DNA of 64,000 nt from Nitrosopumilaceae archaeon. Lineage in GTDB: Archaea > Thermoproteota > Nitrososphaeria > Nitrososphaerales > Nitrosopumilaceae. The translations under genes and the position numbers were made by a program. Where the stretch lies: assembly GCA_965207375.1 (NCBI GenBank), contig OZ242274.1, positions 992,001 through 1,056,000 on the forward strand, read 5' to 3'. Every line of letters begins with the position of its first letter. Position 1 is the first letter of the stretch. The notes under the pieces were generated by a model. The model searched no databases and was not told where the DNA came from. It was given only the letters and a program-made list of their open reading frames with translations. Shown here piece by piece: positions 41,609 to 52,270 of the stretch.

Positions 41609-42934
41609 CTAACCAATTCCCATTCGTCTTAGGGTGCCTTGCATCTGTCTTCCTTTTGATGCCTTCATCATGTTTTTGGAATTTTGATAATTTTTGACTA
41701 GTTCTTTGACGTCTTGCTGAGACCACCCTGAACCTCGTGCAATACGTTGAATTCTAGATGCGTTTAACACCCCCGGCTCTGCCTTTTCCTGTCGGGTCAT
41801 ACTTTGTATGATGAATCTCCATCTGTCTATTTTGCCTTCCATTTGGTCTAGCTGATCATCTTTTACCATTCCAGACAAACCAGGCATACTGTCTAACAAT
41901 CCTCGAAGAGAGCCGACCTTAGTTACCTCCTCTAACTGGTAGAAAAAGTCTTCAATGTTCATCTTTCCACTAGAGATGCGTTTCATTCTAACATCGTCTG
42001 CCTCATTTTCAAGTTTTTTTGCCAAATCTAGTACTGCTTGAATATCTCCCATTCCTAGCATCTTTCCTACAAATCGTGTAGGTGAGAATTTTTCCAAATC
42101 ATCAATTCGCTCTCCGGTGCCGATGTACATTATTTGTGCGCCGGTGGCAGCAGATGCTGCAATTGCTCCGCCTCCCTTTGCAGAGCTGTCCAATTTGGTT
42201 ACGACAATTCCTCCTACTGCAATAGTCTTGTGAAATGCTTCGGCCTGATTGTAACATTGTTGGCCAATTGTGCCATCAATTACTAACAAAGCCAGATCAG
42301 GATCTGCTACCTTGTTGATTTGTTTCATCTCATCTAGCAAATCGTGCTCTTCTTTGTGCCTACCAGCAGTATCTATCAACAATATGTCAAGATTGGAATT
42401 TTCAAAATGTTTCAGGCCATTTTTGACTATATTAGGAGAATCCTTGTTATTTTCTTCGCCATAAACTTCGACATTTGTCTTTTCACACATGGTCCGAAGC
42501 TGAACTAGTGCACCGGGACGATACGTATCTGCACCAATGACGCCCACCTTGTATCCCTGCACTGTTAGAAATTTTGCAAGCTTTGCAGAAACTGTGGTTT
42601 TTCCACTTCCTTGGATTCCGAGCATTACAATTTTGTTTGTTTTGCCTGGTTTGAATGTGAATTCTGTTTCATTTCCTAAAAGTTTTGCAAGTTCATCATA
42701 TAGAATTTTAACAATGTGATCCTTTCTAGGTAATCCTGGGGGAGGAGTTTCAGTCATTGCCCTTTCCTTGAGGTTTTTAGTAATTACTAAAACTAGTTTT
42801 GCATTTACATCTGATAGCAATAATGCATACTGAACATCTTTGACAAGCTTGTCAATAAGTTCCTCATTGATACCCGAAGATTTTACAATCTTTTTGATTG
42901 CCGATCTAAGATTGGTTCTAAGTTCATCAAGCAT
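41609..42934 (-). CDS. srp54: Signal recognition particle protein SRP54
   Basis: GIQGSGKTT, DTAGR, TKLD and RIARGSG motifs. Confidence 0.96.
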   Translation of the reverse strand: MLDELRTNLRSAIKKIVKSSGINEELIDKLVKDVQYALLLSDVNAKLVLVITKNLKERAMTETPPPGLPRKDHIVKILYDELAKLLGNETEFTFKPGKTNKIVMLGIQGSGKTTVSAKLAKFLTVQGYKVGVIGADTYRPGALVQLRTMCEKTNVEVYGEENNKDSPNIVKNGLKHFENSNLDILLIDTAGRHKEEHDLLDEMKQINKVADPDLALLVIDGTIGQQCYNQAEAFHKTIAVGGIVVTKLDSSAKGGGAIAASAATGAQIMYIGTGERIDDLEKFSPTRFVGKMLGMGDIQAVLDLAKKLENEADDVRMKRISSGKMNIEDFFYQLEEVTKVGSLRGLLDSMPGLSGMVKDDQLDQMEGKIDRWRFIIQSMTRQEKAEPGVLNASRIQRIARGSGWSQQDVKELVKNYQNSKNMMKASKGRQMQGTLRRMGIG

Positions 42935-43616
42935 GGTTGTCTAATTCAGCCTCTAGTATTTCAAATCTTCCTCTGTATCCGTCCCATATTTTTTTTGCAT
43001 CTTTAATAGTGATTGGTTGGCAAAAAAGAGGACAATTTAGCACAAATGTCTCAGCCTCGCCCCCCTCAAAACTAATGTTAAAGCCATATTTTGACGATAA
43101 TTTATCCAGCTCATACAAATCATTTTTTGTTATTTTTCTTGATAGCCATGAATCATCTAATCCATCTGTGGTAACACTAGTCAAAATGAATTCAAAGTTC
43201 GAATCAAGCAATTTATGCATGTATTTGCCTTGATCAATATTCCACAGGGGGGAAATTACATCTAATTTTAGGTCATTGCAGACTGTATCAAAATTATTCT
43301 TTTGGAATATGCTTAAAATTCCTCCATGTACTACACCCCCAATACCGTAATTGTCTTTTGCACAAAGCAGCACACTATGCAGTAATGACATTTCGTCTTT
43401 TGTATCTGCACTGTTTGCTCTGTAAATCAAATGCGGTAGGTCCATGGATTTTGCTTGCAACGCAGTATATTTTATATTGCAATGATGTAACATGTGACTT
43501 TCATCGGATTTTGGATATATTGTAATGAGACACTTTACGCAATGGCCTAATTGTTTGGCTGCATAGATTGCAAAGGTACTGTCTTTTCCACCAGAGAACA
43601 ATGCTGCAAGCTTCAC
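42927..43616 (-). CDS. dph6: Diphthine--ammonia ligase
   Basis: FSGGKDS, PLW and EGGEAETFV motifs. Confidence 0.9.
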   Translation of the reverse strand: MKLAALFSGGKDSTFAIYAAKQLGHCVKCLITIYPKSDESHMLHHCNIKYTALQAKSMDLPHLIYRANSADTKDEMSLLHSVLLCAKDNYGIGGVVHGGILSIFQKNNFDTVCNDLKLDVISPLWNIDQGKYMHKLLDSNFEFILTSVTTDGLDDSWLSRKITKNDLYELDKLSSKYGFNISFEGGEAETFVLNCPLFCQPITIKDAKKIWDGYRGRFEILEAELDNHA

Positions 43617-43837
43617 AATGTAAAATAAATCTTAGATTAGATATTTCTTGTTAATGAAAAAGGATGCCTCAACACTCATAATCCTCATCAAAAATCAGAT
43701 GGCTTTTCCGCTTCTCATCAGCATCCGCTTTAGATAAATATATTTCAAGATATAAGTTATAGACGTGTGTAACATTGCGCACAGTAGATTTATCTAGCTA
43801 TTTAGATAAAAAAAATTCACTTAATTAATTGTTGGGC

Positions 43838-43907
43838 TGAAAAAAGATTACAAATTACAAACTTTAATTATCATTTGAAAAAAGATTACAAATTACAAAC
43901 TTTAATT
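43838..43907. repeat. Perfect 32-bp direct repeat, two copies (period 38)
   Basis: TGAAAAAAGATTACAAATTACAAACTTTAATT at 43838 and 43876. Confidence 0.9.
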
Positions 43908-44039
43908 GATTCTGTTTTGAAAAGTAATTTGCTGTTCACGATTATACTACAACACACTAGTATAATAATTTTTCAAAAATAAAATTTTGTTGGTACACAT
44001 GAAATAATTTATCAAATAGTACATACGATACAATACAGG

Positions 44040-44228
44040 TTGCAAAAACAAAAAAACCACAAAACAAAAAGTAAACTTGCTACCAAAGAACAAAGATTGT
44101 ACAAAAAAATTGCAAACGCAGATCCTACAGTAATACATCATGTAAGAAAACATTTGTCTGCTAAACAAAGAAAGCAAATAGCAAACATACTGCACAAAAA
44201 GATTTCAGTGTTGGGAGATATGCGATGA
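44040..44228 (+). CDS. Basic micro-ORF 1 of the coupled array
   Basis: TTG start; ATGA overlap with the next ORF. Confidence 0.55.
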   Translation: MQKQKNHKTKSKLATKEQRLYKKIANADPTVIHHVRKHLSAKQRKQIANILHKKISVLGDMR

Positions 44229-44503
44229 GTACCAGACGACCACGGTCAACCTATATGGACCCAATAAAGAAATTATGTATCACTTGCAGACATGAAGATT
44301 TCCTACATGATGATACTTGTGCTGTCCAATTTTGTAAATGTGAGGGATTGGATAAAATTAGATGTAAGACCTGTAATGTACTGTTCAAACGAAGAACTGC
44401 TGCTATGGCACAGACATGTTCAAAAGAATGTCGTAATAAAAATAGTTACAATACTCAAAAATTAAAAAAACAAGAGGAAATAAAATGGAGGTTGCCTGAA
44501 TGA
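44225..44503 (+). CDS. Micro-ORF 2, double zinc finger
   Basis: CITCRHEDFLH...C...CKC and CKTC...CSKEC. Confidence 0.75.
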   Translation: MSTRRPRSTYMDPIKKLCITCRHEDFLHDDTCAVQFCKCEGLDKIRCKTCNVLFKRRTAAMAQTCSKECRNKNSYNTQKLKKQEEIKWRLPE

Positions 44504-44658
44504 ACTGTCCTGAATGTAACAAATCAATGCAAGTAGAAGAATCAAACTTTAGATGTTTTGATTGTCATGTGAGTTATAATAATGACATCTGGTATTATGA
44601 CAAACTAGATGCAAATCAAATGAGACAAATTAAATTAAGTGAGTTGATGCATGAATGA
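44500..44658 (+). CDS. Micro-ORF 3, zinc ribbon (52 aa)
   Basis: MNCPECNK...FRCFDCH; ATGA overlaps at both ends. Confidence 0.7.
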   Translation: MNCPECNKSMQVEESNFRCFDCHVSYNNDIWYYDKLDANQMRQIKLSELMHE

Positions 44659-44825
44659 ATCTACTTGAAATTCAACTAAAAGCAAGAGACAGACAAATCA
44701 CATATTTGGCAGACAGACTAATAACAACAGTTCCAAAACAAGAACGTGAAAAACTTAGAGACGAATTAATTAAAGATTGTATACAGATTGCCAAAAATAC
44801 ATTAGACAAGGAGATGTCTGAATGA
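44655..44825 (+). CDS. Micro-ORF 4, helical (56 aa)
   Basis: MNLLEIQLKARDRQI...KEMSE; ATGA overlaps at both ends. Confidence 0.65.
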   Translation: MNLLEIQLKARDRQITYLADRLITTVPKQEREKLRDELIKDCIQIAKNTLDKEMSE

Positions 44826-44854
44826 CTAAATGTGTAGATTGTGGACATGAAGAA

Positions 44855-46168
44855 TAGCAGATCTAACTAATAATCGATAGCAAATTTGTCAATTAAAGTC
44901 AACTAAAAGATCTATATGTCGATCTTGTTCCAAGATGGTTACAATGGATAAATTCCTACCAGATACAAACATGAAGAAATTGTACAAACTCAAAAAAGAA
45001 GAAAAAAATCCAAAGGTTGTACAGAGAATTACTGCATACATGTTAAAAAAGGAGGGCAAAACATTGTGGGAAATTTCAAATTCCATAAAGATACCGTACA
45101 CCACGGTTCAAAATTGGATAGACAGAATCAACAAGGAAGGCATTGATGCTAGATACGATAAGAAGCAACCTGGTGCACAGTGTAAGCTGGACAAGAAGCA
45201 GATAAACAAGCTAATACGTGATTTGAAAAAAGGACCACAAAAATGTGGTTATGATACTAATTTGTGGACATCACCCATAATACAAAGACACATCAAAAAA
45301 ATATTCAAGACAGATTACAATGTAAGTTCGGTATGGGCATTGATCACTAGACTTGATCTTCATCTAGTTGCACCTAGACCTAGAAACGACAAGGCAGCAA
45401 CCCCTGAGGAAATCGCAGTGTTCAAAAAAAAAGCTCACCGCAAGGTAAAATACTATAGCGACAAAGGACACACAATTATGACCATGGATGCTGCTCACAA
45501 GCTGGTGGCATCAGTGCCCAAAAAGGGCTGGTTTTTTGAAAAACGTCCTGTATTTATCACAGGCAAGAAAAAACCAAAGAAAAAATCCGCAAAAAATAAA
45601 TCTAAAAAATCCAAGAGTCTCACGATTATAGGTGCTATTGGCGCAGAGAAAGAATATTACTTTAGGTTTTACGATACAGGAAACTGGGTTAACGTGGAAA
45701 ACTTTTTGCAGGGTGTACACAAGAAATTCGGCAAGGTTCTGATGTTTATGGACAATGCAGCTTATCACAAAAAAGATGAGCTAAAACGTATCACAAGGGA
45801 GACAGGTGGTCAGATGCAGTTTGAGTTTTATCTAAAATATACTCCTGAACTCAATCCGATTGAGCCTGAATGGTCGGTCATGAAAAAGAGTATTGCAGGT
45901 ATTATAGCTACAAATGCTGAGCTCAAACGTATCATAGCTCGATCAATAAAAAACAAAACTATTCCAATAGTAAAAATGTTCGACTATTTGATACCGTAAT
46001 TTTGTTCTTTGATTCTTTTGTTTGTAACTATCAGATAATATGCTGTAATATTTTGTGCATTTCATGTTTAGTTGCTTTGATCGCAACTGTTGCAAGTGTC
46101 AATGTCAGGTCACGACTTTGTTTTTTAAAATATGTAGAAAAACTATTGATTATTAGTTAGATCTGCTA
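44855..46168 (+). mobile_element. IS630-family element (1314 bp)
   Basis: 26-bp TIR TAGCAGATCTAACTAATAATC(G/A)ATAG, flanked by AA on both sides. Confidence 0.92.
44935..45999 (+). CDS. IS630-family transposase
   Basis: HTH, LWT winged helix, MDNAAYHK and YTPELNPIE motifs. Confidence 0.92.
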   Translation: MVTMDKFLPDTNMKKLYKLKKEEKNPKVVQRITAYMLKKEGKTLWEISNSIKIPYTTVQNWIDRINKEGIDARYDKKQPGAQCKLDKKQINKLIRDLKKGPQKCGYDTNLWTSPIIQRHIKKIFKTDYNVSSVWALITRLDLHLVAPRPRNDKAATPEEIAVFKKKAHRKVKYYSDKGHTIMTMDAAHKLVASVPKKGWFFEKRPVFITGKKKPKKKSAKNKSKKSKSLTIIGAIGAEKEYYFRFYDTGNWVNVENFLQGVHKKFGKVLMFMDNAAYHKKDELKRITRETGGQMQFEFYLKYTPELNPIEPEWSVMKKSIAGIIATNAELKRIIARSIKNKTIPIVKMFDYLIP

Positions 46169-46268
46169 AATCATTTCATACTCAATACAACTGTAAGTAT
46201 GTAGTTGAGACTATAGACGACATAGTAAAAGAATGTGGCTGTGAAGGATACTTGGAGTTAATGCCAGA

Positions 46269-46421
46269 ATGAAATGTGATTTATGTGAAGAACCAATCAA
46301 AAGTTATGATGAGTATTATACCGAACATAATTTACCAATAATTAAACAAAGAACATTATGCAAAAATTGTGTTATGTGCAAAGCACAATTTACTTATCAA
46401 GAGGCTAGAGCATACAAATGA
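46269..46421 (+). CDS. Micro-ORF 6, zinc finger (50 aa)
   Basis: MKCDLCEE...LCKNCVMC. Confidence 0.68.
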   Translation: MKCDLCEEPIKSYDEYYTEHNLPIIKQRTLCKNCVMCKAQFTYQEARAYK

Positions 46422-46434
46422 GGAAGATACTTGA

Positions 46435-46542
46435 ATGAAAATTTGCCCTAGTTGTAATTATCCCATGTCAGAATCAATATCAGATGATACATTATTTGAA
46501 TGCCTAACATGTAATTTGAGTTATGAGGGAGATCCTGATTGA
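46435..46542 (+). CDS. Micro-ORF 8, zinc ribbon (35 aa)
   Basis: MKICPSCNYPM...FECLTCNL; linked upstream by the 6-aa ORF 46418-46438 and downstream by the 17-aa ORF 46539-46592. Confidence 0.65.
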   Translation: MKICPSCNYPMSESISDDTLFECLTCNLSYEGDPD

Positions 46543-46588
46543 CCAAGTTCAACATCTACACTTGCCAACTTTGTTTTGGGGCTAAATC

Positions 46589-46846
46589 ATGAAGATACAA
46601 ATCGATTGTGATGTCAAGTTCAAACGAACACATGCCATCTTAATACTGGCCATAGGTCTGGTAATAGTTACTGCAATTGGATTACATGTAGGTATGAATC
46701 CGCCATGTGTTGATGGCCAATACAAATACGTACACAGTGCAAATGATATGGGAATAGTAGTACAGGCGATGGATGGCAAGACCATAATTGATTTTAATCT
46801 AGAACCAGGTAACTACTGGGCAAAATACTATGAAATATGCAGATAA
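46589..46846 (+). CDS. Micro-ORF 10, single-TM protein
   Basis: Hydrophobic AILILAIGLVIVTAIGL; last ORF of the coupled array. Confidence 0.65.
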   Translation: MKIQIDCDVKFKRTHAILILAIGLVIVTAIGLHVGMNPPCVDGQYKYVHSANDMGIVVQAMDGKTIIDFNLEPGNYWAKYYEICR

Positions 46847-46943
46847 AAGAGAACAAAAATTTAACCAGTTGTTCAAAATCTGTTAATCCACAAAGTCCTT
46901 ATTATATTAAATGCAATAGTGAGATTTATGGTCCCACTATTTT

Positions 46944-47171
46944 TTACGATTTTGTATGTTTCGCTTTAAATCGTTCCTGTTTTTCATACGTTTCTTTTAG
47001 CAGTTTTTGATGGTCGATTAATTTCTCAACTTGCAACATGGTACGCTGCACCTCACAACCGATATCTCTAAATTTATCTTCTATTTCGTTTAGATATTGT
47101 ACAGTAATTCTATCCATCTTTTGGTGTTTTCCACATACAAACTTTAGCACATCAAGACGATCTTCATGCAA
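46944..47171 (-). CDS. Small hypothetical coiled-coil protein
   Basis: 75-aa ORF overlapping the upstream ORF. Confidence 0.5.
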   Translation of the reverse strand: MHEDRLDVLKFVCGKHQKMDRITVQYLNEIEDKFRDIGCEVQRTMLQVEKLIDHQKLLKETYEKQERFKAKHTKS

Positions 47172-47347
47172 TATCCTCTTTCACGCCATTTTCGGTCGCG
47201 CACTTCTTGTTCAGCCCACTGTTCTTTTGTAACTGCCGCATATTGCAATTGCTTATAGTCCTCTATCAAGTCAAGTATAGTCTGACTCATATATTCAAGA
47301 TCGTCATAAGTCTTGTGAAATCTCTTGAGATTTAGTTCTACTTCCAT
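47144..47347 (-). CDS. Small hypothetical protein
   Basis: 67-aa helical ORF. Confidence 0.5.
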   Translation of the reverse strand: MEVELNLKRFHKTYDDLEYMSQTILDLIEDYKQLQYAAVTKEQWAEQEVRDRKWRERGYCMKIVLMC

Positions 47348-47440
47348 ATACCTATACTGTACACACCATAATTTATGTTTGAAAGCATTCAGGGCTCATG
47401 GTATCACAAACAAGTTCAAAACCAATTATGAAAACACATG

Positions 47441-48082
47441 TCATGTCTTGTGTATTATCATTTCAAGTTGTTGCCATGTCCCGCTTTTTGGCTTTTTACG
47501 CGGTTGGCTTGTTTCCTTACAGTGCAGTATCGTCATACCGTTACCTAGTATACTGCATATTTCTGATTCAGTAAAAAAGTGTATTTTTAATCCTTGTTTT
47601 GGCCCATCATGGTACTGTATAGTAAATCCACCGTGCTTGTTTTTTTCAATAATTTTGTGGGCATGCCAGGGTACAGTAGATGCTGAATTGATGCGTAAAA
47701 ACAGCAAGCCGTTTTTGCGCAAAATTTGTACAGTTTTTGTAAAATAGCGATACACCGTACTATAATCACCATGCTGATATGATTGTATTGATACCACATA
47801 ATCATAATTTTCTGAAACATTCAAAATGTTTTTGCATGAAACTCTTTTTGTTTTTTTGAGCAATTGAGATATGGCAACCTTTGAGACATCTATACCCTTT
47901 ATGTCAAGTCCTGATAAAACCAACGGAAGATAGTTTCTCCCGTTACCACATCCTACATACAATCCTTCTCCTCGTGGTTTATATTTCAATATCGTCTTTA
48001 CAAATTTCACAGGTGCTTGGTGCTGATATCTTCCGGCTGCATATTGTCTGTCCCAACTGTGAGAAATTAAAACATCATCCAT
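47441..48082 (-). CDS. Class I SAM-dependent methyltransferase
   Basis: LYVGCGNGRN, GIDVS, YDYVV and LRKNGLLF motifs; 8-bp overlap with the upstream gene. Confidence 0.88.
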   Translation of the reverse strand: MDDVLISHSWDRQYAAGRYQHQAPVKFVKTILKYKPRGEGLYVGCGNGRNYLPLVLSGLDIKGIDVSKVAISQLLKKTKRVSCKNILNVSENYDYVVSIQSYQHGDYSTVYRYFTKTVQILRKNGLLFLRINSASTVPWHAHKIIEKNKHGGFTIQYHDGPKQGLKIHFFTESEICSILGNGMTILHCKETSQPRKKPKSGTWQQLEMIIHKT

Positions 48083-49812: not shown

Positions 49813-50769
49813 TCTATAGCTAAAGCATTATTTTTATGCACAAGATCAAAAAAATTTGTCCCATACATTAAGAGATCAGTCCTGCATACACCAAAATATG
49901 AAACCAATCAAACGCATGGAACATGATCTCAAGCCCCGCAAGACTCACTATGACGCACAAATGAGACTCAGAATGATATACGCCATTGAACATGGAATAC
50001 ACGTAGACGATGTGGCTGAAATCTTTGGCGTATCAAGACGCGTATTATACGAGTGGAAGACCAAATACGAACAACATGGTCTTGAGGGGCTTGAGGAGGC
50101 TCCCCGTACAGGAAGGCCGTCGTTTCTTTCAGACAAGAAAATAAAACGATGCATGGATAACATCCAAAAACCAGGCAAGATACCAAATGCAAAAAAATTG
50201 CGAGAAGAGATCCACAAAAGTCACGGCATCTGGTACAGCAAATCAGGAATACGAAGGATATTGGCCAAAAACGGTCATACCTTCAAAAAAATTATGCCGG
50301 TTCATGTACGTGCAGCTACAAACGAGGAGGCAGACATTTGGCGTAAAAAGAATCTTCCAAAGATTAGGAGACTGCAAAAAGAGGACCACAAACTTGTTGC
50401 CCTAGATGAGGCATCAGTTGAAATTGATTCAAATTCTAGATATGGATATTGCAAACGCGGTACGAGACTGTATGCCACATACAACGGTACAAAGCAAAAA
50501 GTGCCTATAATTGGCGCCATGGTAGAAGACGGACGATCTATGTTTCGTACAAAACCCAAATTTAATTCACCTACGTTTATAGAATTTTTATGAGATATGC
50601 AACGGACAATGGGGCCCACAGTAATTGTGATGGATAAGGCATCATATCACAGGTCCAAAGATATAAAACAATGGTTTAAAGGATTCTTCTGCTTTATCTG
50701 TTGGTCAAAGTCAATATGCAAATTTTCTCCGAATTGCCCGTGCCTAGATTACTGCCTGTACCAGCAGAT

Positions 50770-50839
50770 CAATCACACATTATCAAAGCAATCACACATT
50801 ATCAAAGCAATCACACATTATCAAAGCAATCACACATTA
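50770..50839. repeat. 19-bp tandem repeat, about 3.7 copies
   Basis: Unit CAATCACACATTATCAAAG. Confidence 0.92.
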
Positions 50840-50902
50840 GCAGAACATAATCTTCTCCGAGTTGTCACTGTTTCATCACACATGTAACTTTGACATTAGA
50901 GT

Positions 50903-52270
50903 TTATTGCACGTACAGTGCAGCGTTTGATATTACTGTCCTCCATTTTTGTCCGTGTATAGTTATACCTGCAGCCTCTGCAGGCGTCTTGCCTCCAAGAC
51001 TCGAGTGAGGTCGCATGAAATTGTAATAAATATCACATCCTGCAAATATTGGCGAGTTTTTACTTTTAATGCCGCGTCTGGGTCGTTGTATAGCACGTAA
51101 TGTCCCGTTGAATCTTTCCTGGACATTGTTGTTGTTCTTTTTGGAAATTCCTGCATTTGATATGTGTGTGCAATGTTGATGTATCGCGTTTGGTGCAGCA
51201 TACACTGATTCAAATGCTTGTGCATATGAGGGCAGGCCATCGCTTACAAATTCTGTAGGTTTCTTTCCGGCACGGGCTGCTGCAGCTTTGAGTAGGTTTT
51301 CTGCATTGTGTCCGTCCTTGCAGTTTGCAACCTCCCATGCTAGTAAAAATCTGGTATCATAATCAGTCTCTGCAAAAAGATAATTTTGTTTACCTCTTAT
51401 TGAAATGTATTCCTCGTCTGCACAGAATCGATTGCCTGTATTAATTGAAAGTGACATCAGGTATACATACACCATTGTTACAAATTTGATTATCCATCTG
51501 TATATCGTAGATACACACACATACACTCCCTTTTGTGCTAGCGTGTCTTGTATTGCACTAGGTGTATGTCCCTTATAGTAGGCATCAAGTGCATCTAGAA
51601 TCGCCCATGATTCTATTCGTGTGTGTTCCATGCCGCCCCTGTACCCAAAGACACGATTGCAATTTTTGCATTGGTATCGTTGCGTAGTGCCATGTCTACG
51701 CTGTATATGACCATATTTTATGATGTGTTCGTCACCGCAATGCATACAGTGTGATGGAATCTCTATTAGAACTATTTCTGTGGTTTTTTTCTCAGTATTG
51801 TCATCTGCATCTTTGGGCTGTTTGTCCTGGCAAGGCAGCTTAGCTGCATCTTTGGATTGTTCATCAATTATTGTCTCTGCATCCCTGTCTACAGTATCTG
51901 CAATTACTGCTAGGATATGCTTGCATTGAGCCTGTCTGTATTTGTGATCTGGACAGTCACATGACCAGGAATTTTTTTTCTGTATCACGGTATATCTGAT
52001 GTTGTCCTTAGATTGGGACTGTACTGTGTAATGGTTATGCCTGACTTTTTTTATTGCATTTTGTGTTTCTAGTATTTTCAAGGCACGATTTCCGCGTCCT
52101 TGTGCACCCTTGCTCCAAGATACACGTGTACTCATCCATCTAGTAACTCTTGTCATTTTGTCAGTACTGCGCGTAAGCAGTACCGATGTCTTGTTTCGTA
52201 TAGCCTCAAATTTTTCGTGTAGTTTAAATTTTGATCTTGTATATGATTTTTGATATGTTAGTCCCATCAT
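50903..52270 (-). CDS. DDE transposase (IS6/IS240-like) with SWIM and zinc-ribbon domains
   Basis: CDCPD...CKH, CMHC...CKNC, STIYRW, ADE, SDG, NNVQERFNG and YNFMRPHSSL motifs. Confidence 0.88.
   Translation of the reverse strand: MMGLTYQKSYTRSKFKLHEKFEAIRNKTSVLLTRSTDKMTRVTRWMSTRVSWSKGAQGRGNRALKILETQNAIKKVRHNHYTVQSQSKDNIRYTVIQKKNSWSCDCPDHKYRQAQCKHILAVIADTVDRDAETIIDEQSKDAAKLPCQDKQPKDADDNTEKKTTEIVLIEIPSHCMHCGDEHIIKYGHIQRRHGTTQRYQCKNCNRVFGYRGGMEHTRIESWAILDALDAYYKGHTPSAIQDTLAQKGVYVCVSTIYRWIIKFVTMVYVYLMSLSINTGNRFCADEEYISIRGKQNYLFAETDYDTRFLLAWEVANCKDGHNAENLLKAAAARAGKKPTEFVSDGLPSYAQAFESVYAAPNAIHQHCTHISNAGISKKNNNNVQERFNGTLRAIQRPRRGIKSKNSPIFAGCDIYYNFMRPHSSLGGKTPAEAAGITIHGQKWRTVISNAALYVQ

What the first reader, a model, noticed from the sequence alone, without database searches (positions are those of the whole stretch)
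44040..46846. Unbroken chain of ten translationally coupled micro-ORFs, six with CxxC motifs, joined by a shared junction motif
Seen: with the IS630 removed, ORFs starting at 44040, 44225, 44500, 44655, 44822, 46269, 46418, 46435, 46539 and 46589 are all linked by 4-bp ATGA/TTGA overlaps. Each of the nine junctions has a purine-rich, SD-like motif just upstream, e.g. GGAGGTTGCCTGAATGA, GGAGATGTCTGAATGA, GGAGTTAATGCCAGAATGA, GAGGAAGATACTTGAATGA, GGGAGATCCTGATTGA. Five end in GAATGA. Two members are stubs (6 aa MRKILE; 17 aa with a single CQLC) that still preserve coupling. ORFs 2 and 5 share a CxxCxHxxxxH...C...CxC motif. Known: archaeal termination-reinitiation uses SD motifs at such overlaps, and archaeal viruses carry many small zinc-finger genes. 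Inference: a virus-derived, modular microprotein array, in which cassettes may be gained or lost at the shared junction. Seven of the ten ORFs are below the 60-aa cutoff of the ORF track.
Basis: partly seen in the sequence, partly recalled or inferred. Interest (0 to 1): 0.75.

Follow-up and report, generated by a model that had tools for sequence, protein, structure and literature searches.

The report
Overlapping operon of orphan zinc microproteins

Summary
The chain is real. All nine 4-bp junctions lie where stated. The reading of ORF5 across the IS matches an IS-free contig in a public run, which joins 44852 to 46169 in frame. The statistical signal sits in the core: six consecutive ATGA junctions between ORFs of 44-92 aa. 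The maximum was 3 in 2 Mb of simulated sequence and 5 elsewhere in the chromosome. Permissive chains that include stubs do arise by chance.

GGAG/GAGG precedes 7 of 9 junctions, against 36 of 108 coupled junctions genome-wide. GAATGA closes 5 of 9, against 43 of 701. The named frame scores best of six for every ORF except the two stubs.

ORF3 and ORF8 are paralogous C4 zinc ribbons. ORF2's N-terminal half resembles ORF5.

No homologue turned up in any protein, viral, genome or metagenome search. The only relatives seen are roughly 90-96% identical contigs in one run. They keep the ORF1/ORF2 ATGA, its SD and the CxxCxH ligands.

Best reading: a translationally coupled operon of orphan microproteins in an IS-rich variable island, probably of mobile-element origin and now split by the IS. 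A viral origin is not shown. Cassette exchange is only hinted at.

The parts
43838..43907 (+). Two exact 32-nt direct repeats, 38 nt apart (iteron-like), upstream of the operon
   Evidence: the repeat finder family D2. Related copies with 1-4 such repeats lie at C1:345923-346174 and C1:1479886-1480132.
43915..43980 (+). Conserved promoter-like core with an A/T-rich TATA-like box near 43961-43968; a portable module shared by three loci of the chromosome
   Evidence: Alignment of the three copies. 43951-43980 is identical in all three, and no difference is listed there for run X5. Promoter function is inferred.
44040..44228 (+). ORF1: 62 aa, TTG start, very basic (pI 11.0), no Cys
   Evidence: Named frame is best of six. 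Against the X5 relative, 10 of 17 listed changes fall at third codon positions and 6 of 15 changed codons are synonymous. No SD before the TTG.
44225..44503 (+). ORF2: 92 aa with two Cys modules (CxxCxHxxxxH..C..CxC, then CxxC...CxxxC) and a helical tail
   Evidence: In the X5 relative the ATGA, the GGGAG and C18, C21 and H23 are kept, with synonymous changes in both Cys codons. 0 hits among 1.84 billion representatives.
44500..44658 (+). ORF3: 52 aa, C4 zinc-ribbon-like, paralogue of ORF8
   Evidence: AF2 on the 2-row alignment gave mean pLDDT 81.4 and an all-beta model. Only sub-threshold zinc-ribbon Pfam hits.
44655..44825 (+). ORF4: 56 aa, Cys-poor, charged; a helical fold is my guess from its composition, it was not folded
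   Evidence: Only itself found among 5.8 billion clusters.
44822..44852 (+). ORF5, 5' part (first 10 codons plus 1 nt), cut by the IS
   Evidence: The X5 joint 44852->46169 restores the frame.
44855..46168 (+). IS630-family insertion sequence (26-nt terminal inverted repeats; 354-aa transposase at 44935-45999); an interruption, not part of the operon
   Evidence: DDE_3 1.6e-15 and HTH_33 1.9e-10. Inverted repeat I1. Four full copies in contig C1 at 99.6-100% identity.
46169..46272 (+). ORF5, 3' part (total 44 aa once joined)
   Evidence: Frame is best of six.
46269..46421 (+). ORF6: 50 aa, CxxC ... CxxCxxC
   Evidence: No relative in genome contigs or viral contigs.
46418..46438 (+). ORF7: 6-codon stub that bridges the 13-nt gap between the ORF6 stop and the ORF8 start; possible relay mini-ORF, or chance
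   Evidence: No coding signal. Bridging baseline.
46435..46542 (+). ORF8: 35 aa, C4 zinc ribbon, paralogue of ORF3
46539..46592 (+). ORF9: 17-codon stub with TTG start, preceded by GAGGGAG at 7-nt spacing; bridges the 46-nt gap to ORF10
   Evidence: Its frame is not the best of six.
46589..46846 (+). ORF10: 85 aa with one hydrophobic 19-mer (residues 16-34); its last codons and stop lie inside a foreign IS fragment
   Evidence: Only itself among 5.8 billion clusters.
46840..46892 (.). 53-bp piece of another multi-copy element (14 matches elsewhere in contig C1, 34-53 nt long); a rearrangement scar that marks the right end of the array

Best explanation
This is one polycistronic operon of at least eight real small genes: ORFs 1-6, 8 and 10, of 35-92 aa. 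It lies in an IS-rich, strain-variable island of a Nitrosopumilaceae-type chromosome.

Inferred mechanism:
- Transcription starts at a portable promoter module with iteron-like repeats at 43838-43980.
- Each downstream cistron is translated by termination-reinitiation at an ATGA overlap, helped by a GGAG/GAGG motif 7-11 nt upstream.
- The products are mostly one-domain, probably zinc-binding ribbon or treble-clef-like microproteins. There is also one very basic protein, one Cys-poor charged protein and one membrane-anchored protein.
- They arose partly by old duplication within the array (ORF3/ORF8, and ORF2 N-half/ORF5).
- The two stubs either relay ribosomes across gaps of 13 and 46 nt, or are what is left of shrunken cistrons.

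The island is probably a remnant of a mobile element rather than core host DNA. An IS630-family copy now splits ORF5 and uncouples the distal half.

Shown: the anatomy, the frame preference, the SD and GAATGA enrichment, the paralogy, the conservation in one relative, and orphan status. Inferred: transcription, coupling, metal binding, and mobile origin.
For: Anatomy.

The strict chain is beyond chance: 6 junctions in the island, a maximum of 3 in 2 Mb simulated, and 5 elsewhere in C1.

Coding signal: the named frame is best of six for 9 of 11 segments; the two exceptions are the stubs.

SD motifs:
- The 16S 3' end is ...GGATCACCTCCT.
- GGAG/GAGG lies within 20 nt at 7 of 9 junctions.
- The figure is 36 of 108 genome-wide ATGA junctions and 6% of 20,000 random sites.

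Junction motif:
- GAATGA at 5 of 9 junctions against 43 of 701; TGAATGA at 4 of 9 against 14 of 701.
- The repeat finder picks out the junction motif on its own as family D1.

Paralogy.

A relative in run X5 is 90-96% identical.
- It keeps the ORF1/2 ATGA, the SD and the CxxCxH ligands.
- Its indels net one codon.
- It carries the IS-free, in-frame ORF5.

Fold: ORF3 models as a small all-beta protein (pLDDT 81.4). Its weak sequence and fold neighbours are zinc ribbons.

Island status:
- Synteny with 5 relatives ends at 43737.
- The DNA was not found in 400 genomes of the family.
- IS elements lie on both sides.
- The promoter module recurs beside an integrated element that carries PolB, a D5-like helicase and a DNA methylase. 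That element has its own 11-junction coupled chain with stubs of 17-31 aa.

Literature:
- SD motifs usually precede overlapping downstream genes and aid reinitiation (PMC6728339, passages read).
- Gaps of about 20 nt nearly abolish coupling (PMC10666635, abstract read).
Against: - No expression or proteomic data.
- Outside this genome and run X5, nothing related was found for any ORF, so conservation rests on a few short contigs of one run.
- ORF1 starts with TTG and has no SD.
- The paralogous copy at C1:346000 has two 1-nt gaps early in ORF1, so the frame is not kept there.
- The absolute coding scores are near zero, as they are for known neighbouring genes.
- AF2 on ORF2 alone was poor (pLDDT 53.6).
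- For a mobile origin there is no integrase, no att repeat and no hallmark gene.
- One copy of the promoter module sits before a plastocyanin-like host-type gene.
- The IS insertion shows the intact operon is dispensable in this strain.
Confidence: 0.62

Rival explanations
1. The array is a modular cassette system in which whole microprotein cistrons are gained, lost or swapped by recombination at the shared SD...GAATGA junction.
For: - The junction motif is far commoner here than at other coupled junctions (5 of 9 against 43 of 701).
- It is recovered as a repeat family (D1).
- ORF3 and ORF5 end alike (ELMxE, then GAATGA) although they are otherwise unrelated.
- In run X5 the homology to ORF2 stops between its two modules.
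- The contig that holds ORF3 has 174 further letters beyond 44658, the last base of the ORF3/ORF4 junction, that did not lay on the window.
- The stubs could be emptied cassettes that kept both junctions.
Against: - The shared motif is only about 7-17 nt, and SD, a final GAA codon, stop and start explain most of it.
- There is no recombinase and no attC-like structure.
- Internal DNA similarity between cassettes is negligible (best blastn-short E 0.48), so no recent exchange is visible.
- Where X5 contigs bridge junctions (ORF1/2 and ORF4/5), the order is the same as here.
- Contig ends in a short-read assembly are weak evidence of breakpoints.
- No second array exists in this genome to exchange with.
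Confidence: 0.15
2. This is a native host operon of small zinc-finger regulators, or subunits of one small heteromeric complex. It evolves fast, is not mobile, and has simply been hit by an IS.
For: - No mobile-element hallmark lies inside the island.
- The promoter module also precedes a plastocyanin-like gene.
- Small zinc-finger proteins with cellular roles are known in archaea (PMC6562870, PMC10716476 and PMC2253796; search listing and abstract starts only).
- Short overlaps are enriched among subunits of complexes (PMC10666635, abstract).
Against: - Not found in 400 genomes of the family, nor in the 4 same-genus genomes.
- Synteny breaks exactly at the island's left edge.
- The flanks are IS debris.
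- The IS disruption is tolerated.
- The nearest language-model neighbours of ORF2 are viral hypothetical clusters scoring 0.86-0.89, which is a lead only.
Confidence: 0.15
3. This is not a set of genes. It is an A-rich non-coding or decayed stretch whose open frames and overlaps are accidental.
For: - Permissive NTGA chains of this length occur by chance.
- No homologues were found.
- No expression data exist.
- The two stubs and the TTG-started ORF1 are weak gene candidates.
Against: - The strict chain exceeds both the simulation and the rest of the chromosome.
- The named frame wins in 9 of 11 segments.
- SD motifs are enriched and correctly spaced.
- ORF3 and ORF8 show paired Cys ligands and paralogy.
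- The X5 relative keeps the ligands, has codon-sized net indels and shows a third-position excess.
Confidence: 0.05

Closest known systems
Translationally coupled overlapping gene pairs (termination-reinitiation at ATGA), as studied in Haloferax volcanii and E. coli (PMC6728339, PMC10666635)
   Same: - Co-directional genes overlap by 4 nt.
- An SD motif sits inside the 3' end of the upstream gene.
- The 16S anti-SD is present in this genome.
   Different: - Here nine such junctions follow one another between ORFs of 6-92 aa.
- Five share GAATGA, and four of these place a second TGA, in the downstream frame, directly before the ATG.
- Two gaps are bridged by stubs.
- Coupling itself was not tested.
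One-domain zinc-finger micro-proteins of archaea (Haloferax C(P)XCG proteins, Halobacterium Brz; PMC6562870, PMC10716476, PMC2253796)
   Same: Proteins under 70 aa with two Cys pairs. ORF3 and ORF8 begin with a CPxC knuckle.
   Different: - No sequence relationship was found.
- The motif here reads CPxCN, not CPxCG.
- The known examples are mostly scattered single genes, whereas these form one array.
- Zinc binding is not shown.
Cryptic integrated elements and proviruses of Thaumarchaeota (PMC6563490)
   Same: - Strain-specific DNA full of orphan small ORFs.
- A neighbouring region rich in IS elements.
- A similar coupled chain with stubs occurs in an integrated element of the same chromosome (C1:1.48 Mb).
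   Different: No integrase, no flanking direct repeats, and no replication or capsid gene within the island. At most it is a remnant.
Integron-type gene cassette arrays
   Same: A string of short, mostly unrelated ORFs in one orientation, with a repeated motif at each boundary.
   Different: No integrase and no structured attC site. The boundary motif coincides with SD, stop and start, so a translational role explains it.

Membership tests
Termination-reinitiation coupled gene pairs | Co-directional ORFs with a 4-nt (ATGA) or 1-nt overlap | tested here: met
   9 of 9 junctions: 8 ATGA and 1 TTGA. ORF5 needs the 1316-nt IS removal seen in run X5.
Termination-reinitiation coupled gene pairs | SD motif complementary to the 16S 3' end inside the upstream gene | tested here: met
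   GGAG/GAGG within 20 nt at 7 of 9 junctions and at 7-11 nt spacing at 6 of 9. The 16S end is ...CACCTCCT. Genome baseline is 36 of 108.
Termination-reinitiation coupled gene pairs | Downstream translation depends on upstream translation | not testable with these tools
   Needs reporter constructs or ribosome profiling.
One-domain zinc-finger micro-proteins | Under 70 aa with two CxxC-type ligand pairs | tested here: met
   ORF3 (52 aa), ORF8 (35 aa) and ORF6 (50 aa) have two pairs. ORF5 (44 aa) has CxxCxH plus CxC.
One-domain zinc-finger micro-proteins | Zinc actually bound; ribbon or knuckle fold | tested here: inconclusive
   The ORF3 model has pLDDT 81.4 and is all-beta. Foldseek found nothing at E <= 0.001; the weak rows are zinc ribbons. 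Metal binding cannot be tested here.
Thaumarchaeal provirus or cryptic integrated element | Integrase gene | tested here: not met
   No integrase domain in any ORF of 43740-47440. The only recombinases nearby are IS transposases.
Thaumarchaeal provirus or cryptic integrated element | Flanking att direct repeats | tested here: not met
   The repeat finder on 43600-47500 gives no repeat pair that brackets the island.
Thaumarchaeal provirus or cryptic integrated element | Viral or plasmid hallmark genes, or homologues in virus collections | tested here: not met
   PHROGs: nothing below 5.7e-4. IMG/VR: 6 ORFs and a promoter 30-mer without a real relative. Phage records: none.
Integron-like cassette array | Site-specific integrase plus a structured recombination site at each cassette end | tested here: not met
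   No integrase. The boundary motif is 7-17 nt and overlaps SD, stop and start.
IS630 family (the interrupting element) | DDE_3 transposase with N-terminal HTH, terminal inverted repeats, 2-bp target duplication | tested here: met
   DDE_3 1.6e-15 and HTH domains. 26-nt inverted repeats. The three other full copies are flanked by TA. At this site the empty-site contig implies an AA duplication if the element ends in TA.

The most novel reading that the evidence does not exclude
The array is a dedicated expression architecture for interchangeable microproteins.
- A double-stop junction (TGA-ATG-A) ends ribosomes arriving in two frames exactly at the next start.
- Relay mini-ORFs of 6 and 17 codons carry ribosomes across gaps that would otherwise abolish reinitiation.
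- Together these keep all products at fixed ratios from a single initiation event.
- Whole cistrons or single Cys modules are exchanged between related elements at or near these junctions. The X5 relative, which lacks ORF2's second module, hints at this.
Probability: 0.15. Interest if true: 0.7.

Novelty: new member of a known kind. Interest (0 to 1): 0.4.

Why it matters
Small proteins are routinely missed in archaeal annotation. Seven of these ten ORFs fall below a common 60-aa cutoff.

The locus is a compact natural test bed for termination-reinitiation in Nitrososphaerota (Thaumarchaeota), for three reasons:
- The two Thaumarchaeota terms I searched for in the main paper on archaeal coupling (PMC6728339) occurred 0 times.
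- It has nine junctions of graded SD strength.
- It has two candidate relay mini-ORFs.

If the microproteins act on a virus or plasmid, or on host takeover, they would add orphan families to the very thin catalogue of functions in mobile elements of ammonia-oxidising archaea. As it stands, this is a well-formed but ordinary kind of locus made of proteins with no known relatives.

Tried and rejected
Homologue searches that gave nothing usable:
- ORF2: word-indexed search of 5.8 billion clusters and exhaustive phmmer over 1.84 billion representatives (0 hits).
- ORF10 and ORF4: only themselves.
- IMG/VR scans with ORF2, ORF10, ORF4, ORF3, ORF1 and ORF6. L031-L033 and L038 came back. On inspection, L032 was a phage zinc-ribbon ORF and L038 a 28-aa frame in a tailed-phage contig. 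L033 gave the same weak match as L032. L031 matched only residues 17-30. I did not open L031 or L033.
- Metagenome scans with ORF3 and ORF1.
- Genome-contig scans with a promoter 30-mer and with ORF6; viral scan with the 30-mer.
- Phage records by tblastn (ORF2, ORF10) and by blastn.
- 60 relatives searched by protein and by DNA, and 400 family genomes by DNA.
- Pfam, PHROGs, PADLOC and NCBIfam: no hit reached a curated cutoff.
- PDB sequence search: only generic zinc-finger or zinc-ribbon rows.

Structure:
- AF2 of ORF2 without an alignment gave pLDDT 53.6, which is not interpretable.
- Foldseek of the ORF3 model found no match at E <= 0.001.
- ESM Atlas: all scores were under 0.9, so they are leads only.

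Other steps:
- Synteny could not fix the right border. The regions beside the orthologous left flank in 4 relatives map elsewhere in this genome.
- Expression: no RNA holder was listed by the look-up of sequencing runs.
- Coverage: run X5 gave no cover over 46351-46743, and run X4 none over 43731-44778. I draw no conclusion from either.
- I considered complex prediction for neighbouring microproteins and left it out. I make no binding claim, and no alignments exist.
- Supplements of the papers were not opened. Those of PMC6728339 may hold per-phylum SD figures that bear on Thaumarchaeota.

Full report
**Context.** The window is G000:C1:992001-1056000. By the tool's kinship labels (family f1), the genome sits among small-genome relatives of about 0.8-3.2 Mb. 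From the gene content I take these to be Nitrosopumilaceae-type ammonia oxidisers; that name is my inference and comes from no call.

Left of the finding lie core genes:
- Pus10
- SRP54
- a diphthamide-synthase-family gene at 42927-43616 on the minus strand.

Next comes a conserved C/D-box-like small RNA at about 43667-43728 on the minus strand. It scores 29.3 bits against Rfam sR41, below the 54-bit gathering score. Fifty-two columns are invariant across 5 relatives.

Similarity to the 5 relatives stops at 43737. To the right lie two small minus-strand ORFs, a methyltransferase, an NAD-binding/cupin protein, a second split IS630-like gene and an IS240/rve-type transposase. The finding therefore lies in an IS-rich variable region.

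**The observation.** Eight junctions are ATGA and one is TTGA. Five end in GAATGA.

The element that splits ORF5 is an IS630-family copy:
- DDE_3 1.6e-15 plus HTH domains
- 26-nt inverted repeats
- four full copies in contig C1 at 99.6-100% identity.

Under the usual model, removing the element plus one TA (1312 nt) would leave ORF5 with an in-frame TAA after 11 codons. One contig of public run X5 joins 44852 directly to 46169. It skips 1316 nt, has 83 nt on its shorter side, and 3 letters are ambiguous.

It fits an element that ends in TA on both sides and duplicated AA here. The other three copies fit either model.

The joint rests on one contig, laid at a likeness threshold of 88. The tool warns that such joints can mislead. 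The left arm of that contig has 6 other letters in 138.

With any NTGA start and ORFs of 5 aa or more, a 9-junction chain arose once in 2 Mb of order-3 Markov sequence. The other long permissive chains I inspected in the genome are repeats or frames without any SD. The chain in the integrated element described under Origin is a real exception.

It is more than chance on a strict definition of ATGA only and ORFs of 30 aa or more. The IS-free island has six consecutive junctions. The simulation maximum was 3, and the rest of contig C1 reached 5.

A three-periodic Markov score trained on long ORFs ranks the named frame first of six for 9 of 11 segments. The two exceptions are the 6- and 17-codon stubs.

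**Junctions.** The 16S rRNA ends ...GGATCACCTCCT.

| Measure | Island | Genome baseline |
|---|---|---|
| GGAG/GAGG within 20 nt upstream | 7 of 9 (6 of 9 at 7-11 nt spacing) | 36 of 108 ATGA junctions between frames of 100 codons or more; 6% of 20,000 random sites |
| GAATGA | 5 of 9 | 43 of 701 |
| TGAATGA | 4 of 9 | 14 of 701 |

In TGAATGA the first TGA lies in the downstream frame, directly before the ATG. The repeat finder recovered the junction as a repeat family without prompting (D1).

So the shared junction is real and specific to this island. SD, a final Glu codon, stop and start account for most of it. I cannot tell selection on translation from shared descent.

**The stubs.** Without them, 13 nt and 46 nt would separate the neighbouring cistrons. 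In Haloferax and E. coli, gaps of about 20 nt nearly abolish coupling (PMC10666635, abstract).

Genome-wide, 318 of 9299 TGA stops that close frames of 50 codons or more are stub-bridged to an ORF of 35 aa or more. Two in succession is therefore unlikely but not extraordinary. ORF9's TTG has the best-spaced SD of the set, GAGGGAG at 7 nt.

A relay role is a fair hypothesis. A shrunken cistron is the alternative. Neither is shown.

**The proteins**.
- ORF1 is very basic (pI 11.0) and has no Cys.
- ORF2 has two Cys modules.
- ORF3 and ORF8 are paralogous C4 ribbons (Z 9.1, 0 of 300 shuffles).
- ORF2's first module resembles ORF5 (Z 3.7, 1 of 300).
- ORF4 is Cys-poor and charged.
- ORF6 has CxxC and CxxCxxC.
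- ORF10 has one hydrophobic 19-mer.

No curated family is reached in Pfam, PHROGs, PADLOC or NCBIfam. ORF3, folded on the two-row alignment, gave pLDDT 81.4 and an all-beta model. Foldseek found nothing at E <= 0.001, and the weak rows are zinc ribbons of RNA polymerase subunits, RPA and Trm112-like proteins. ORF2 folded poorly.

**Relatives.** None was found in any searchable collection, for any ORF tried.

The only relatives are short contigs in run X5. Similar small shares of the sampled words are held by X6-X8, which I did not lay. These contigs cover the promoter, ORF1, the first half of ORF2, ORF3, the end of ORF4 and ORF5, at roughly 90-96% identity.

In ORF1, 10 of 17 listed changes are at third codon positions, and 6 of 15 changed codons are synonymous.

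At the ORF1/ORF2 junction the ATGA and the GGGAG are kept. ORF2 gains one codon net. C18, C21 and H23 are kept, with synonymous changes in both Cys codons.

Homology to ORF2 ends at 44342, between its two modules. The contig's next letters, read in frame, give six codons and TAG. The contig that carries ORF3 has 174 more letters beyond 44658 that did not lay on the window. These are hints of modular variation, not proof.

**Origin.** The promoter module (32-nt repeats plus a conserved core, 43838-43980) recurs at two other places.
- C1:345923-346174 carries the first 94 nt of ORF1 at 87% identity. It lies upstream of a plastocyanin-like gene.
- C1:1479886-1480132 lies beside an integrated element. 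That element carries a DNA methylase, a D5-like helicase, PolB, a further helicase and a PriL-like gene. It has its own 11-junction chain, 10 of them ATGA, with stubs of 17-31 aa.

The right end of the array is a 53-bp piece of another multi-copy element, and that piece contains ORF10's stop.

There is no integrase, att repeat or hallmark gene in the island, so it fails the definition of a cryptic integrated element (PMC6563490, passages). A mobile-element remnant is the most economical reading, but it is an inference. A viral origin in particular has no support.

**Verdict.** The locus is a well-formed, probably translationally coupled operon of orphan microproteins, now split by an IS. It is a new member of a known kind, with two unusual details that merit a bench test: the GAATGA/TGAATGA junction and the bridging stubs.

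Noticed in passing
window 43667-43728 (minus strand): Conserved C/D-box-like small RNA with a terminal stem. It is a weak Rfam sR41 match (29.3 bits against a gathering score of 54, E 0.0011). 52 columns are invariant across 5 relatives of two genera. Synteny with the relatives ends just after it, at 43737.
   Followed up: partly
G000 contigs C2, C3, C4 (0.43, 0.78, 0.93 Mb): ORFs of 200 aa or more cover only 7-14% of these contigs, against 69% of C1. Several tblastn hits recur identically between C3 and C4. They do not look like ordinary archaeal chromosome and may be repeat-rich, foreign or mis-binned DNA.
   Followed up: no
G000:C1:1480700-1492000 (locus L034): Integrated element with an N6/N4 DNA methylase, a D5-like helicase (D5_N, DUF5906, Pox_D5), family B DNA polymerase, a further helicase and a PriL-like gene. 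It holds an 11-junction stop-start overlap chain that includes ORFs of 17-31 aa, one of them with a CxxC...HxxxxC zinc-finger-like pattern.
   Followed up: partly
window 46840-46892: 53-bp segment matching an internal part of another repeated element. There are 14 matches in C1, 34-53 nt long, at 87-90% identity. In the 9 copies I looked at, both flanks are also conserved among those copies, but not here.
   Followed up: partly
window 44853-44856 and 46167-46170: The empty-site contig implies that this IS630-family copy duplicated AA rather than TA, if the element itself ends in TA. Otherwise the pre-insertion site differed by 4 nt from the relative's.
   Followed up: partly
window 46834-47500 against run X4 (organism B): A contig of another organism label matches 46834-47500 with 0 other letters in 667. 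Its copy of the small-RNA region (43655-43725) has 7 other letters in 71. This suggests recent exchange of the segment that holds the two small minus-strand ORFs and the methyltransferase.
   Followed up: no
G000:C1, 15 sites (e.g. 691245, 763880, 1869450): A repeated end sequence of about 50 nt (...ATAATTACGGATCACCTCT) turned up while I searched for the 16S 3' end. It is probably the terminus of a further multi-copy mobile element.
   Followed up: no
window 49856-50887 and 50903-52270: A second IS630-like gene split into two frames of 245 and 96 aa. Next to it lies a 455-aa transposase with SWIM, DDE_Tnp_IS240 and rve domains.
   Followed up: no
window 46944-47347 (minus strand): Two overlapping small ORFs of 75 and 67 aa on the opposite strand, without family hits. 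Each is the best of six frames. Whether they belong to the island is open.
   Followed up: partly
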